A stretch of DNA of 9,827 nucleotides from Candidatus Odinarchaeia archaeon. GTDB lineage: Archaea > Asgardarchaeota > Odinarchaeia > Odinarchaeales > Odinarchaeaceae. The position numbers and the translations under genes were made by a program. Position 1 is the first letter of the stretch; every line of letters begins with the position of its first letter. Shown here piece by piece: positions 1,584 through 5,163 of this stretch. The notes under the pieces were generated by a model. It was not told the DNA's origin and did no database searches. It was given only the letters and a program-made list of their open reading frames with translations. Where the stretch lies: the NCBI GenBank assembly GCA_029856525.1, contig JAHQXC010000051.1:1-9827 (forward strand), given 5' to 3'.

Positions 1584-1991
1584 ATGACGGATAAGTTTAT
1601 AAGGGTTAGTATGACACTGCCAAAAGCGCTTTTAGAAGAGTTCGACGAGTTTGTTAAAACTAGAAAATATTTTAAAAGATCTGAAGCGATAAGAGATGCT
1701 CTGAGATTTTTCATAACCGAGAATAAATGGAGATATGAGGAGGACAGCCGCTTCATAGGAGCGCTTCTATTAATGTATGATCATGATGTACCAGGAATCT
1801 CAGATTATCTAACTCATATTCAACACATCTATCACGAGAATATTAAAACCGCGGTTCACATCCACCTCGACGAGCATAAATGTTTAGAGATACTGGCTGT
1901 TGAAGGAAACGGGGGTAGGCTTAGAAATTTAGCTGATGAAATAGGTCACCGTAAAGGTGTTGAAATGAGTAAACTCGTGTTGGTTAAATGA
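1584..1991 (+). CDS. nikR: NikR-family nickel-responsive ribbon-helix-helix regulator
   Basis: N-terminal RHH (IRVSMTLP...EEFD...RSEAIRDALR). C-terminal ACT-like domain with YDHD and all four canonical Ni ligands: QH, HIH and C in IQHIYH...AVHIHLDEHKCLE. Confidence 0.92.
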   Translation: MTDKFIRVSMTLPKALLEEFDEFVKTRKYFKRSEAIRDALRFFITENKWRYEEDSRFIGALLLMYDHDVPGISDYLTHIQHIYHENIKTAVHIHLDEHKCLEILAVEGNGGRLRNLADEIGHRKGVEMSKLVLVK

Positions 1992-2045
1992 AAGATGATT
2001 ATTGATTAATCATAAGTTTTGAAAGATTTAAATACAGGTGAATTT

Positions 2046-2675
2046 ATGAGTCTAAAAAACTCGGCGAGGTTACTTCAAAGACTAATTTATTCACGGAGAA
2101 GTATACGTGTCTTTCAGAAACGTGAAGTCTCATATAAAAAAATTTTAAAGATACTAGAATACGGGGTTTGGGCTCCATCCGCTCATAATTCTCAGCCCTG
2201 GAGGTTTATACTAATATTAAACCAAGATATACGAGGTAAACTCGTAGAGGAGATGAGCCGGTTATATAAAGCGGATATGGAGAGAGACGGTTTACCTTCA
2301 GATATGATTGAGAGAAGGCTTTTAAAATCTAAGTTGATGTTAAAAGAATCCCCGGTTTTAATCCTAGTATGCTTGGATAAAACGGTTTTATGGAGTTATA
2401 GAGATGAGAACCGGGATGAAAACGAGTTTATCATGGGTGTTCAAAGCGTAGCCGCCTCTATCCAGAATATTCTACTAGGAGCCTCCGCTGAAGGGTTAGG
2501 CGCATGCTGGATGTGCGCGCCTTTATTCTGTAAAAAACTTATCCGTGAATTACTCCAGCTGCCCGGAGAATATGAACCTCAAGCTTTCATAGTAGTAGGC
2601 TACCCGGCGGAGAAGCCTATTCCACCGCCTAGGAGAAGTGTAAAAGAGGTCACATATATTATAGACGGAGTGTAG
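2046..2675 (+). CDS. FMN-dependent nitroreductase-fold protein resembling the FbiB C-terminal domain / stand-alone FbiE (putative dehydro-F420-0 reductase)
   Basis: Motifs RRSIR, APSAHNSQPWRF, ADMERDGLPSDMIERR, SYRDENRDENEFIM, QSVAASIQNILL, GLGACW, LFCKKLIRELLQLPGEYEPQAFIVVGYP parallel the mycobacterial FbiB C-domain as I recall it (SDLTSDGLPADAIERR...SYPD...AEHTM...GLGSCW...WEPLGAIAIGY). Directly upstream of cofD and cofC. ATG 2046 preferred over TTG 2019 because AGGTGA (2036-2041) precedes it. Confidence 0.85.
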   Translation: MSLKNSARLLQRLIYSRRSIRVFQKREVSYKKILKILEYGVWAPSAHNSQPWRFILILNQDIRGKLVEEMSRLYKADMERDGLPSDMIERRLLKSKLMLKESPVLILVCLDKTVLWSYRDENRDENEFIMGVQSVAASIQNILLGASAEGLGACWMCAPLFCKKLIRELLQLPGEYEPQAFIVVGYPAEKPIPPPRRSVKEVTYIIDGV

Positions 2676-2690
2676 CCCGGGGGGGTTTTA

Positions 2691-3638
2691 TTGGAGGTCA
2701 CCATGTTAAGTGGAGGGGTTGGCGGAGCTAAACTGGTTGAAGGATTCTATAATATTTTAAATAAAACCAGGCTTAACGTGATCTGTAACACTGGAGACGA
2801 CCTGGAACTCTTCGGATTATATATCAGCCCGGATTTAGATACTGTAATGTATACTCTAGCCGGACTGGTTGACGAAGAGAAAGGGTGGGGTGTTAGAGAC
2901 GATACCTTCCGTTGTTTAAAAGCACTCAGCGAATTCTATAAAAAAGAGAGCTGGTTTAATATAGGGGACTGTGATTTAGCCACGCATATATTTAGAACCG
3001 AGCTTTTAACGAAAGGTTATAGTTTAACTGAAGCAACGAGAATTCTATGCGAAAACCTAGGGCTAGATAGAGTTAACCTTCAGCCGATGAGCGATGACCC
3101 TGTTAGAACAATGGTAATGGTGGACTCCGGCGTCTACCTTTCTTTTCAAGAGTATTTTGTGAAGAGAAAATGCCGGGATCCGGTTTTAAACGTGATATAT
3201 AAGGGTTCAGATGAAGCTAAACCCGGCGGCCATGTTTTAGAAAGCATAGCCAGAGCGGATATAATAATAATATCTCCTAGCAATCCTATAGCTTCGATAG
3301 GTCCTATTCTATCAGTTAAAGGTATTCGCGAACAATTAAAGAAAGCGGATTGTATAAGAGTAGCGGTGACGCCGATTATTCAAGGAGCTCCCTTAAAAGG
3401 TCCGGCGGATAAATTTATGGCAGGGCTTGGATTCGAGGTTTCCGCTTTAGGTGTAGCTGAGTATTATAAAGGTTTAGCTGATGTTTTCATTCTAGATGAG
3501 AGAGACGCTTACTTGAAGAATAAGATAGAAGAGCTCGGCTACAAGGTTCACGTAACTGACACTGTTATGAATAGTTTAAAAGATAAAATAAGGCTAAGCA
3601 GGTTTATATTAAAAGCAGTCGGGTTGAAGGAGAGTTAA
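2691..3638 (+). CDS. cofD: 2-phospho-L-lactate/PEP transferase (LPPG/EPPG:Fo transferase), F420 biosynthesis
   Basis: VTMLSGGVGGAK, NTGDD, PDLDTVMYTLAG, GDCDLATHIFRT, PMSDDPVRT, FQEYFV, PSNPIASIGPIL, GPADKFM. TTG start with a G7 run 5 nt upstream. Confidence 0.96.
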   Translation: MEVTMLSGGVGGAKLVEGFYNILNKTRLNVICNTGDDLELFGLYISPDLDTVMYTLAGLVDEEKGWGVRDDTFRCLKALSEFYKKESWFNIGDCDLATHIFRTELLTKGYSLTEATRILCENLGLDRVNLQPMSDDPVRTMVMVDSGVYLSFQEYFVKRKCRDPVLNVIYKGSDEAKPGGHVLESIARADIIIISPSNPIASIGPILSVKGIREQLKKADCIRVAVTPIIQGAPLKGPADKFMAGLGFEVSALGVAEYYKGLADVFILDERDAYLKNKIEELGYKVHVTDTVMNSLKDKIRLSRFILKAVGLKES

Positions 3639-3640
3639 AA

Positions 3641-4285
3641 ATGGAGGTTAAAGCGAATATAATTATTCCTGTTAAAAACCTCTCTAAAAGTAAAAATAGG
3701 CTTTCAAACATGCTTGGAAGTTATCAGAGACAGCTGTTAGTATTAGTTATGTTAGAGGATATTATAAGAGAGTTAAATAATTCTCATTTCATAAATAAAA
3801 TTTATATTTTAACAGATGACGAGCTTTTGAAGAGAGAGGCTTATTATAGTAACGTTGTTGTCGTGATTCAGAAGCATGGATTAGACGTCAATAACGCGCT
3901 TAAAACGTTTTTAAACGAGGCTTTAGATGAGTTAAGCGATCACCCTGTTATAATAATACCTTCAGATATACCTCTCATTAAACATGAGAGTGTGGATGAG
4001 ATCGTTAAGATGATCTCCCAGCTTAAGAGGAGTGTTATAATATCCCCTGCGCATGATAATGGAACTAATTTAATCGCTTTACCCCCCGGGAAGATTATAT
4101 GCTTCCATTATGGATTGAATAGTTTCCGTGAGCATGCCACCGAGGTTTTAAACGCGGGTTTAAGCCTGTTAATATATGATTCAGAGGACTTAGAGCTTGA
4201 TCTGGATACACCTGAAGACGTTTACCAGCTGGTTAACAGCGGAGTCAACCGTAAAACCGCGTTATATCTTGCGAAGATGCTTTAA
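3641..4285 (+). CDS. cofC: 2-phospho-L-lactate/PEP guanylyltransferase, F420 biosynthesis
   Basis: IIPVKNLSKSKNRLS, IIPSDIPLI, DNGTNL, FHYGLNSFREH, LDLDTPED. Starts 2 nt after the cofD stop. Confidence 0.93.
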   Translation: MEVKANIIIPVKNLSKSKNRLSNMLGSYQRQLLVLVMLEDIIRELNNSHFINKIYILTDDELLKREAYYSNVVVVIQKHGLDVNNALKTFLNEALDELSDHPVIIIPSDIPLIKHESVDEIVKMISQLKRSVIISPAHDNGTNLIALPPGKIICFHYGLNSFREHATEVLNAGLSLLIYDSEDLELDLDTPEDVYQLVNSGVNRKTALYLAKML

Positions 4286-5163
4286 CATTTTATTTTAGAG
4301 ATAAGATAGTCTATTATCAGCTTAGCTATATCGATTTTTACAACCTCGCTGAGACCGTGCCATGAAGGAGCTGCATTAGCTTCAATCACTTTATAGCCTT
4401 CACTAGACTCTATTATATCGATACCTGTGTAATCTAATTCCATGACGCTGGCTGTTTTAACAGCTAACTCTTCAAGCTCAGAGTTTAAAACTAGTTTACA
4501 GGGTTTAGCACCAGCTGAAATATTACTCTTCCACTCTCCGGTCTGCGCTACACGATACATTCCCCCGATTACCCGGCCTCCTATAACGAAGACTCGTATA
4601 TCGCGACCAGGGTTTGGAATATATTCTTGAATGTATAAAACTTGATGTAAACGTTTAAGAGTTTTAATTATTCGATAAGATAAGTCTGGGTTATCTGATT
4701 TAATCGGCCCCAATCCCCGAGAACCTATTAAAGGCTTAATCACCACGCTCCCCCATTCCTCAGCGGTTTTATAAGCCTGCTCCGCGTCCTCTGTTACCAG
4801 TGTCCTAGGTACAGGGATTCTATTTTTACTCAGTGAAACCAGTGTAGCATACTTATCTTTAGCTCTTCTAAAAGCGTATGGTTTATTGATTAAAATCTTG
4901 CCGTCTAAGCTTAAATGCTCTAAAAGAGAGATTCTATAAGTTATTTCATCTGTGCTAGCTGCGCCTAACCCTCTTATTATACCAGCGTCGAAAGATGAAA
5001 GCTCTCTGTTAAAATAGAATTCACTCTTTTCACCGGCTAGCAGCGCGCTTACCTGGTCTAGTCTAATTAATAAAGGTTGGTGGCCGGATTGTTCAACAGC
5101 TCGTATTAACTGGTTTCCAGGCCAGCCTAACCTGTTATCTCCGCTCAGTATCGCGATTTTCAA
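4282..5163 (-). CDS. RimK-family ATP-grasp alpha-L-glutamate ligase, most like MptN/CofF coenzyme ligases
   Basis: INKP...AKDK, IPVPRT, VIKPLIGSRGLG, YIQEYI, RDIRVFVIGG, MYRV...WKSNISAG, GIDIIES, VIEANAAPSWHGL. TTG start with a G6 SD 6 nt upstream. The substrate cannot be fixed from sequence. Confidence 0.88.
   Translation of the reverse strand: MKIAILSGDNRLGWPGNQLIRAVEQSGHQPLLIRLDQVSALLAGEKSEFYFNRELSSFDAGIIRGLGAASTDEITYRISLLEHLSLDGKILINKPYAFRRAKDKYATLVSLSKNRIPVPRTLVTEDAEQAYKTAEEWGSVVIKPLIGSRGLGPIKSDNPDLSYRIIKTLKRLHQVLYIQEYIPNPGRDIRVFVIGGRVIGGMYRVAQTGEWKSNISAGAKPCKLVLNSELEELAVKTASVMELDYTGIDIIESSEGYKVIEANAAPSWHGLSEVVKIDIAKLIIDYLISKIKC

What the first reader, a model, noticed from the sequence alone, without database searches (positions are those of the whole stretch)
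2046..4285. Archaeal F420 cluster with a free-standing FbiE-like reductase implies the PEP/dehydro-F420-0 route
Seen: a nitroreductase with FbiB-C-terminal-type features (DMERDGLPSDMIERR helix insert, SYRD...EFIM) directly before cofD and cofC and not fused to CofE. Established: mycobacteria use PEP to make dehydro-F420-0, which the FbiB C-domain reduces; stand-alone FbiE does this in some Chloroflexota; the classical euryarchaeal route uses 2-phospho-L-lactate and needs no reductase. Inference: this archaeon makes F420 by the bacterial-style PEP route using a split gene set, which bears on where the pathway originated or how it was transferred.
Basis: partly seen in the sequence, partly recalled or inferred. 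Interest (0 to 1): 0.7.

Follow-up and report, generated by a model that had tools for sequence, protein, structure and literature searches.

The report
Stand-alone FbiE-type reductase beside cofD/cofC
An Odinarchaeial (Asgard) genome carries a free-standing nitroreductase of the FbiB-C/FbiE type directly before cofD and cofC, which most likely reduces dehydro-F420-0 in a PEP-based F420 route; reviews have already predicted this kind of archaeal gene from genomes, so it is a further example rather than a new system.

Summary
Window 2046-2675 encodes a 209-aa nitroreductase, followed by cofD (2691/2703-3638) and cofC (3641-4285). CofE is a separate 252-aa gene on another contig.

The reductase matches the FbiB C-terminal domain best by HMM, sequence and fold (TM about 0.9). 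It carries the residues that mark that clade. It groups in a tree with the Thermomicrobium roseum cluster nitroreductase and with actinobacterial FbiB C-domains.

In 26 of 30 Asgard loci the homologue sits directly before cofD. Natural NTR-CofD and CofE-NTR fusions exist. So dehydro-F420-0 reductase and a PEP route are the best reading (about 0.65), though no enzyme was tested.

It is not new as an idea. Grinter and Greening 2021, citing Braga 2020, state that stand-alone FbiE homologues occur in predicted archaeal F420 producers. The host is an Asgard archaeon, not a euryarchaeon. The data give no direction of origin or transfer.

One addition: FO synthase (CofG/CofH) was not found in the genus, which includes a closed genome, nor in any of 28 Asgard genomes with a stand-alone reductase. 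F420-dependent enzymes are present, so FO is probably salvaged.

The parts
1584..1991 (+). NikR-type regulator directly upstream on the same strand. It may be co-transcribed; a link to F420 is not shown.
   Evidence: NF002169 139.8 bits and PF08753. The order NikR-NTR-CofD-CofC is kept in all four genomes of the genus.
2046..2675 (+). Stand-alone FMN nitroreductase of the FbiB-C/FbiE clade (209 aa); proposed dehydro-F420-0 reductase.
   Evidence: TIGR03553 136.7 bits is the best NCBIfam domain model, against BluB 72.5. Best PDB sequence hit is 4XOM/4XOO/4XOQ, E 5e-28. AlphaFold model pLDDT 95.7; the top 11 Foldseek hits are all FbiB C-domain chains, TM about 0.9. Tree clade; signature residues.
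2274..2318 (+). Helical insert DMERDGLPSDMIERR (residues 77-91), typical of the clade.
   Evidence: It aligns with DLTSDGLPADAIERR of Mtb FbiB. D81 and G82 are each present in 52 of 59 clade members, and most outgroup nitroreductases have a gap there.
2394..2435 (+). Segment SYRDENRDENEFIM (residues 117-130) with clade-specific Y118, D120, E127 and M130.
   Evidence: Y118 58/59, D120 58/59, E127 57/59, M130 52/59 in the clade, different or gapped in outgroups. M130 aligns with Mtb M372 of the docked enolpyruvyl pocket.
2691..3638 (+). CofD/FbiA-type transferase that joins the activated C3 acid to FO. The likely true start is ATG 2703.
   Evidence: TIGR01819 330.1 bits, over its cut-off. PDB 3C3D (M. 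mazei CofD) 232.5 bits; 6UVX (M. smegmatis FbiA) 196.8 bits.
3641..4285 (+). CofC/FbiD-type guanylyltransferase.
   Evidence: TIGR03552 141.8 bits, over its cut-off. PDB 2I5E, 7P97 and 6BWG. It has Gly at the position where Ser/Thr marks tolerance of 3-phosphoglycerate (with PMC8764529).
4282..5163 (-). Convergent RimK-family alpha-L-glutamate ligase, closest to MptN. It is a neighbour and is not shown to belong to the F420 genes.
   Evidence: NF040720 MptN 268 bits (cut-off 350); CofF 98 bits. The neighbourhood is kept within the genus.

Best explanation
NTR-cofD-cofC is an F420 side-chain operon of an Odinarchaeial archaeon. Inferred chain of steps: CofC activates phosphoenolpyruvate with GTP; CofD transfers the enolpyruvyl phosphate to the deazaflavin FO, giving dehydro-F420-0; the free-standing nitroreductase, an FMN enzyme of the FbiB-C/FbiE type, reduces the methylene double bond with FMNH2 to give F420-0; the separate CofE adds the glutamate tail. 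Shown here: the family of each protein, the membership of the reductase in the FbiB-C/FbiE clade, and its tight gene linkage and fusion with cofD and cofE across archaea. Inferred: the substrate (PEP), the reaction, and the source of FMNH2. FO itself is probably taken up from outside, because no FO synthase gene was found.
For: Best HMM is the FbiB C-domain model TIGR03553, 136.7 bits over its full length; BluB scores 72.5, and the two other nitroreductases of the same genome score at most 38 bits. Best PDB sequence hit is Mtb FbiB C-domain, E 5e-28. The model has pLDDT 95.7, and its first 11 structural hits are all FbiB C-domain chains at TM about 0.9; the next hit has TM 0.79. It is 42% identical to the T. 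roseum nitroreductase that lies in a cofD-cofC-DMT-NTR cluster. The tree has a 59-row clade (88/95 support) holding the window protein, all CofD-linked Asgard NTRs, CofE-NTR and NTR-CofD fusions, T. roseum, and Rhodococcus/Nocardia FbiB-C; it excludes BluB and generic paralogues. Clade-only residues H47 (59/59), D81-G82, Y118, D120, E127, M130 and S134 are all present. NTR lies directly before CofD in 26 of 30 Asgard loci and in Bathyarchaeia. Fusions NTR-CofD (followed by cofC) and CofE-NTR exist. CofC has Gly, not Ser/Thr, at the 3-PG diagnostic position. The genome needs F420: Mtd 328 bits, Fno 184 bits, FrhB-like and LLM proteins.
Against: No enzyme activity is known for any archaeal member. 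The TIGR03553 score is under its curated cut-off (249.55). Of the three Mtb pocket residues named from docking, only M372 is kept; P289 aligns with Ala and R337 with Lys, and the R337 column varies across the clade. AU tests are weak: joining the Odin group to all outgroups is not rejected (p 0.118), nor to BluB (p 0.08); joining to the generic paralogues gives p 0.017. CofC and CofD are closer in sequence to the methanogen enzymes (2I5E, 3C3D) than to mycobacterial FbiD/FbiA. Two CofC/CofD pairs from uncultivated archaea were 2-PL specific (PMC8764529). Two clade members on proteobacterial plasmids lie away from any cof gene.
Confidence: 0.65

Rival explanations
1. The main route uses 2-phospho-L-lactate as in methanogens, and the reductase is a repair or back-up enzyme. 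It would rescue the unstable dehydro-F420-0 that forms when CofC/CofD take PEP by mistake.
For: CofC enzymes generally accept PEP at 3.5-30% of the 2-PL rate, and two uncultivated-archaeon CofC/CofD pairs were 2-PL specific (PMC8764529). CofC and CofD here score higher against methanogen structures than against FbiD/FbiA.
Against: No lactate kinase for 2-PL is known in any organism (PMC6450877, PMC8498797). The strict adjacency and the fusions to CofD and CofE fit a main-line step better than a side repair. About half of the CofD-bearing Asgard genomes have no such reductase at all, which fits two distinct routes rather than a general repair need.
Confidence: 0.15
2. The nitroreductase is tied to F420 synthesis but does something other than reduce dehydro-F420-0. 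It could help CofE bind F420-0 and extend the tail, or reduce another flavin or deazaflavin intermediate linked to use of salvaged FO.
For: The Mtb C-domain was first described as needed for tail extension and it binds F420 (as reported in PMC6450877). All 28 Asgard genomes with a stand-alone reductase lack CofH, a correlation the PEP route does not itself explain.
Against: The tail-extension effect was later explained by the reductase activity (PMC6450877). The gene is linked to cofD far more often than to cofE. The family with the CofE-NTR fusion does have CofH.
Confidence: 0.12
3. It is a generic nitroreductase or a BluB-like enzyme that lies next to cofD by chance.
For: The whole family shares one fold. 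The AU test does not formally reject a grouping with BluB (p 0.08). The TIGR03553 score is under its cut-off.
Against: BluB model 72.5 bits against a cut-off of 150. There are no cobalamin genes nearby. Adjacency to cofD holds in 26 of 30 loci across families, and fusions exist. Clade-specific residues are present.
Confidence: 0.03

Closest known systems
FbiE, the stand-alone dehydro-F420-0 reductase of Thermomicrobium roseum (Braga et al. 2020, as named in Grinter and Greening 2021, PMC8498797)
   Same: A free-standing nitroreductase of about 210-225 aa, 42% identical, in the same tree clade, encoded with cofD and cofC while cofE is unfused.
   Different: Archaeal host. The gene order is NTR-cofD-cofC, against cofD-cofC-DMT transporter-NTR in T. 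roseum. I could not read Braga 2020, so treating the clustered T. roseum gene as the tested enzyme is my inference.
C-terminal domain of M. tuberculosis FbiB (PDB 4XOM, 4XOO, 4XOQ)
   Same: Best sequence and fold match (TM about 0.9). Shared helical insert D..DGLP..IERR, the Y-x-D...E..M segment and the invariant His of APSAH.
   Different: About 30% identity and not fused to CofE. Mtb P289 and R337 correspond to Ala and Lys. The score is under the TIGR03553 cut-off.
CofE-NTR (FbiB-like) fusion of Lokiarchaeota-type Asgard archaea (PMC6450877, PMC8498797)
   Same: In the tree its NTR part is the sister group of the Odin proteins (92/86), and it is also followed by cofD.
   Different: It is fused to CofE, and the genomes that carry it also have CofH, whereas the window's genus does not.
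Classical methanogen pathway CofC/CofD/CofE with 2-phospho-L-lactate
   Same: CofC and CofD are closest in sequence to the M. mazei structures 2I5E and 3C3D; CofE is a single domain.
   Different: A reductase gene is coupled to cofD, and no CofG/CofH was found.
BluB (5,6-dimethylbenzimidazole synthase)
   Same: Same nitroreductase fold; it is the second-best NCBIfam model.
   Different: 72.5 bits against a cut-off of 150, a different clade, and no cobalamin gene context.

Membership tests
FbiB C-domain / FbiE dehydro-F420-0 reductases | Nitroreductase fold with the FMN phosphate-binding RRSxR motif | tested here: met
   PF00881 111.5 bits. R17, R18, S19 and R21 are conserved. Model pLDDT 95.7, TM about 0.9 to the FMN complex 4XOO.
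FbiB C-domain / FbiE dehydro-F420-0 reductases | Scores over the curated cut-off of TIGR03553 (F420_FbiB_CTERM) | tested here: not met
   136.7 bits against a cut-off of 249.55. It is still the best domain model and is matched end to end. The model is annotated for the C-terminal domain of the fused FbiB protein.
FbiB C-domain / FbiE dehydro-F420-0 reductases | Falls in one clade with experimentally studied members, apart from other nitroreductases | tested here: met
   A 59-row clade with 88/95 support includes T. roseum and Rhodococcus/Nocardia FbiB-C. Support is moderate: AU p 0.017 against a join with the generic paralogues, but 0.118 and 0.08 for the two other joins.
FbiB C-domain / FbiE dehydro-F420-0 reductases | Clade-specific residues (His of APSAH, D-G of the insert, Y-x-D, E, M, S) | tested here: met
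   H47, D81, G82, Y118, D120, E127, M130 and S134 are all present. Each is held by 52-59 of 59 clade rows and is largely different or gapped in the 12 outgroup rows.
FbiB C-domain / FbiE dehydro-F420-0 reductases | Pocket residues named from docking in Mtb FbiB (P289, M372, R337) | tested here: inconclusive
   M372 aligns with M130 (kept), P289 with A46, R337 with K94. Ala is the rule in the clade (54/59), and the R337 column varies.
FbiB C-domain / FbiE dehydro-F420-0 reductases | Gene linked or fused to F420 side-chain genes | tested here: met
   Directly before cofD-cofC here and in 26 of 30 Asgard loci. NTR-CofD and CofE-NTR fusions exist.
FbiB C-domain / FbiE dehydro-F420-0 reductases | FMNH2-dependent reduction of dehydro-F420-0 to F420-0 | not testable with these tools
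   Needs an enzyme assay with LC-MS.
CofD / FbiA | Over the TIGR01819 cut-off, full length | tested here: met
   330.1 bits against 257.45.
CofC / FbiD | Over the TIGR03552 cut-off; residue at the 3-PG diagnostic position | tested here: met
   141.8 bits against 105. It has Gly at the position of Mtb G163 / Mycetohabitans S162, so it is of the 2-PL/PEP type and not the 3-PG type (PMC8764529). No known residue separates PEP from 2-PL.
BluB | Over the TIGR02476 cut-off; cobalamin gene context | tested here: not met
   72.5 bits against 150. No cob/cbi genes in the window.

The most novel reading that the evidence does not exclude
Several Asgard lineages, the Odin genus among them, may be FO auxotrophs running a tail-assembly-only F420 pathway: salvaged FO, then PEP via CofC/CofD, then a stand-alone FbiE coupled to CofD, then CofE. 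In the 121 Asgard genomes searched, all 28 with a stand-alone reductase had no CofH. The family with the CofE-NTR fusion had CofH in 16 of 16 genomes. Another 24 genomes had CofD and CofH but no reductase. F420 supply in these archaea would then depend on FO released by neighbours, and the reductase route would mark a distinct pathway type within Asgard archaea.
Probability: 0.45. Interest if true: 0.5.

Novelty: new member of a known kind. Interest (0 to 1): 0.35.

Why it matters
Whether archaea build F420 from PEP through dehydro-F420-0, and which enzyme would reduce it, has been open since 2019. That year's paper proposed an unidentified archaeal reductase, provisionally called CofX (PMC6450877). 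A 2024 paper still calls the archaeal reductase possibly a stand-alone nitroreductase 'or a yet-unknown enzyme' (PMC10949242). This locus is a compact candidate set of three adjacent genes plus a separate cofE, from a small genome that has a closed relative, and it could be expressed to test the idea in an archaeal system. The split within Asgard archaea between lineages with and without the reductase, and the missing FO synthase, bear on cofactor dependence in these communities. It does not change the current picture, which already predicts such genes.

Tried and rejected
Complex prediction of the NTR dimer with CofD gave no verdict (score 0.00). It is not evidence either way.

The run search found only the source sediment metagenome; no RNA holder is listed.

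Braga et al. 2020 and Bashiri et al. 2016 are not held. I therefore could not check which T. roseum gene was assayed, nor the published F420-binding residues.

cofD also has its own GGAGGT-ATG start. So I reject a conserved read-through fusion, although true NTR-CofD fusions exist elsewhere.

3PG-F420 route: rejected, because CofC has Gly at the diagnostic position.

CofC/CofD similarity to methanogen versus mycobacterial structures cannot decide the substrate.

The sigma-70 promoter scan was not used, since the organism is an archaeon.

Literature searches for FO scavenging by organisms that lack cofG/cofH found nothing relevant.
Full report
WHAT IS THERE

The window is contig C86 of a 1.32-Mb genome in 127 contigs, 93% complete. 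The closest relatives of its proteins are from Candidatus Odinarchaeum, for example 74% identity to an O. yellowstonii nitroreductase. The host is therefore an Asgard archaeon, not a euryarchaeon.

The gene order is ProRS, a B3/4-domain gene, NikR (1584-1991), a nitroreductase (2046-2675), cofD (2691-3638), cofC (3641-4285), then a convergent RimK-family ligase (4282-5163) and methionine-pathway genes.
- The nitroreductase ATG at 2046 is preceded by GGTG.
- cofD most likely starts at ATG 2703, after GGAGGT.
- The gaps between the three genes are 15 (or 27) and 2 bases, so they look like one operon, possibly together with NikR.
- The whole order is kept in the three other genomes of the genus, one of them closed.

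That includes the absence of a CofE fusion: CofE is a 252-aa single-domain gene on contig C95.

WHAT THE NITROREDUCTASE IS

Among NCBIfam models the two best are the full FbiB protein model and the FbiB C-terminal domain model TIGR03553.
- TIGR03553 scores 136.7 bits, E 8e-40, matched over positions 4-187 of 194.
- BluB follows at 72.5 bits.
- The score is under the curated cut-off of 249.55. That model is annotated for the C-terminal domain of the fused FbiB protein.
- The two other nitroreductases of the same genome reach only 38 and 33 bits on that model.

The best solved structure by sequence is the M. tuberculosis FbiB C-domain (4XOM/4XOO/4XOQ, E 5e-28). An AlphaFold model built on 35 homologues has pLDDT 95.7. 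Its first eleven Foldseek matches are all chains of that domain at TM about 0.9; the next match reaches 0.79/0.84.

A protein search of plasmid records found the Thermomicrobium roseum megaplasmid gene TRD_RS12805, 42% identical. It lies in a cofD-cofC-DMT transporter-nitroreductase cluster. T. roseum is the organism in which a stand-alone reductase was shown (Braga 2020, as cited in PMC8498797). I could not read that paper, so equating the clustered gene with the tested one is my inference.

TREE AND SIGNATURE RESIDUES

I built a 71-row maximum-likelihood tree. A clade of 59 rows (88 ultrafast bootstrap, 95 SH-aLRT) holds:
- the window protein;
- all Asgard nitroreductases that lie beside cofD;
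- Asgard and bacterial CofE-NTR fusions, and NTR-CofD fusions;
- Bathyarchaeia, Nezhaarchaeota and Thermoprotei homologues;
- the T. roseum protein and the Rhodococcus and Nocardia FbiB C-domains.

Outside the clade lie two BluB proteins, a Clostridium nitroreductase, the two paralogues of the window's own genome and seven other Asgard nitroreductases.

AU tests are only moderately helpful:
- Joining the Odin group to the generic paralogues: p 0.017.
- Joining it to BluB: p 0.08.
- Joining it to all outgroups: p 0.118. This means the Odin group could be a basal branch of the clade.

Residue patterns are sharper, and the window protein has all of them:
- His47 of APSAH is present in 59 of 59 clade rows and in none of 12 outgroup rows.
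- D81 and G82 of the insert, Y118, D120, E127, M130 and S134 are held by 52-59 of 59 clade rows and are largely different or gapped outside.

Three pocket residues were named from docking in Mtb FbiB (PMC6450877). M372 is kept as M130. P289 is Ala, as in most of the clade. R337 is Lys, in a variable column.

GENE CONTEXT

Of 121 Asgard genomes, 46 have a homologue at E 1e-20 or better. Three of these are paralogues that fall outside the clade in the tree.
- In 26 of the 30 best loci the gene lies directly before cofD.
- In one family it is the C-terminal half of a CofE-NTR protein of about 475 aa, still followed by cofD.
- The same NTR-cofD adjacency occurs in Bathyarchaeia.
- A Nezhaarchaeota homologue lies next to an FrhB-like gene.
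- A search for longer proteins found NTR-CofD fusions of 531-534 aa, followed by cofC. This is the window's gene order in fused form.
- It also found CofE-NTR fusions and one NTR-NUDIX fusion.

This ties the clade to the CofD step and to F420 side-chain synthesis much more firmly than sequence similarity alone.

PATHWAY READING

A reductase coupled to cofD is what the PEP route needs: PEP to EPPG to dehydro-F420-0 to F420-0. CofC has Gly at the position where Ser/Thr marks tolerance of 3-phosphoglycerate (PMC8764529), so a 3PG-F420 route is unlikely.

PEP against 2-PL cannot be read from sequence. Hasan et al. 2022 show that CofC assays do not discriminate between them and that CofD acts as the filter. 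They also found two CofC/CofD pairs from uncultivated archaea to be 2-PL specific. Here CofC and CofD score higher against the methanogen structures than against mycobacterial FbiD/FbiA, which proves nothing either way. I put the reductase-plus-PEP reading at about 0.65. The alternatives are a repair role beside a 2-PL route, and another F420-linked role.

WHAT IS MISSING

No CofG or CofH was found in this genome, in the three others of the genus (one closed, 98% complete) or in three genomes of the same order. Yet the genome encodes F420-dependent Mtd (328 bits), Mch, Fno (184 bits, over its cut-off), an FrhB-like protein and luciferase-like oxidoreductases. So F420 is needed, and FO is probably taken up from outside.

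Across the 121 Asgard genomes:
- 24 have CofD and CofH but no clade reductase.
- The fusion family has CofH in 16 of 16 genomes; the clade reductase was found in 15 of them.
- 28 genomes from five families have a stand-alone reductase, and CofD was found in 26 of them. None has CofH.
- 16 have CofD only.

Related genomes are not independent, and many are incomplete. Even so, 0 of 28 is unlikely to come from gaps in the assemblies.

COMPARISON WITH WHAT IS KNOWN

Bashiri et al. 2019 looked beside cofE in more than 1000 archaeal genomes. They found only the Lokiarchaeum fusion, and proposed an unknown archaeal reductase (CofX) located away from cofE.

Grinter and Greening 2021 named the stand-alone enzyme FbiE. 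[quoted passage not shown] They also note that Odin and Thor genomes hold only some of the F420 genes.

The finding is therefore a further member of a known, predicted kind.
- the systematic cofD linkage;
- the NTR-CofD fusions;
- the clade signature residues;
- the link between a stand-alone reductase and a missing FO synthase in Asgard genomes.

The tree gives no direction of transfer between archaea and bacteria. It does place the Asgard CofE-NTR fusions apart from the bacterial ones, which hints at independent fusion events.

VERDICT

It is a new member of a known kind, with interest about 0.35.

Noticed in passing
whole genome G000 and relatives G001-G006; Asgard sample G001-G120: No CofG/CofH in the window's genus (including a closed genome) or order, although Mtd, Mch, Fno, FrhB-like and LLM genes are present. 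Across 121 Asgard genomes, all 28 with a stand-alone FbiE-like gene have no CofH, while the family with the CofE-NTR fusion has CofH in 16 of 16. This suggests FO salvage.
   Followed up: partly
P0121, P0122; loci L066:1080-2684 and L067:939-2543: Natural nitroreductase-CofD fusion proteins of 531-534 aa, followed by cofC. This is the window's gene order in fused form.
   Followed up: partly
L036, L039, L040 and P0123 against P0125-P0132 in the tree: Asgard CofE-NTR fusions are sister to the Odin stand-alone proteins and lie apart from the bacterial CofE-NTR fusions and from actinobacterial FbiB. The fusion probably arose more than once.
   Followed up: no
window 2673-2705: The nitroreductase ends in TAG and cofD lies in the same frame. 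This is also so in G001, but not in G002 or G003. cofD has its own GGAGGT (2693-2698) and ATG (2703), so a conserved read-through fusion is unlikely.
   Followed up: partly
window 1992-2045: The spacer between nikR and the nitroreductase holds a perfect 10-base palindrome TGATTAATCA (2003-2012), next to a repeat of TGATTA. NikR precedes the F420 genes in all four genomes of the genus. It could be a regulator site; this was not tested.
   Followed up: no
window 4282-5163 (-): A RimK-family ligase, closest to tetrahydromethanopterin:alpha-L-glutamate ligase MptN (268 bits, cut-off 350; CofF 98 bits). It overlaps the end of cofC by 4 bases, tail to tail. The genome has Mch and Mtd, so a role in methanopterin cofactor synthesis is plausible.
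   Followed up: partly
L006:2239-2868 (-) = G000 contig C95: A MobA-like nucleotidyltransferase (87 bits to MobA, under its cut-off) abuts the start of the free-standing cofE. GAPDH and phosphoglycerate mutase genes flank the pair.
   Followed up: no
L047:5903-6859: In T. roseum a DMT-family transporter gene lies between cofC and the nitroreductase. It could be a deazaflavin transporter; no counterpart is in the window.
   Followed up: no
L048:5932-6606 and L054:3890-4585: Paraburkholderia and Variovorax plasmid nitroreductases fall inside the FbiE/FbiB-C clade, next to bacterial CofE-NTR fusions, but lie among unrelated oxidoreductase genes. Clade membership alone does not prove an F420 role.
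   Followed up: no
P0124: A 417-aa protein in which the clade nitroreductase domain occupies residues 238-403, with a NUDIX (PF00293) and a PF28549 match elsewhere in the protein. Its function is unknown.
   Followed up: no
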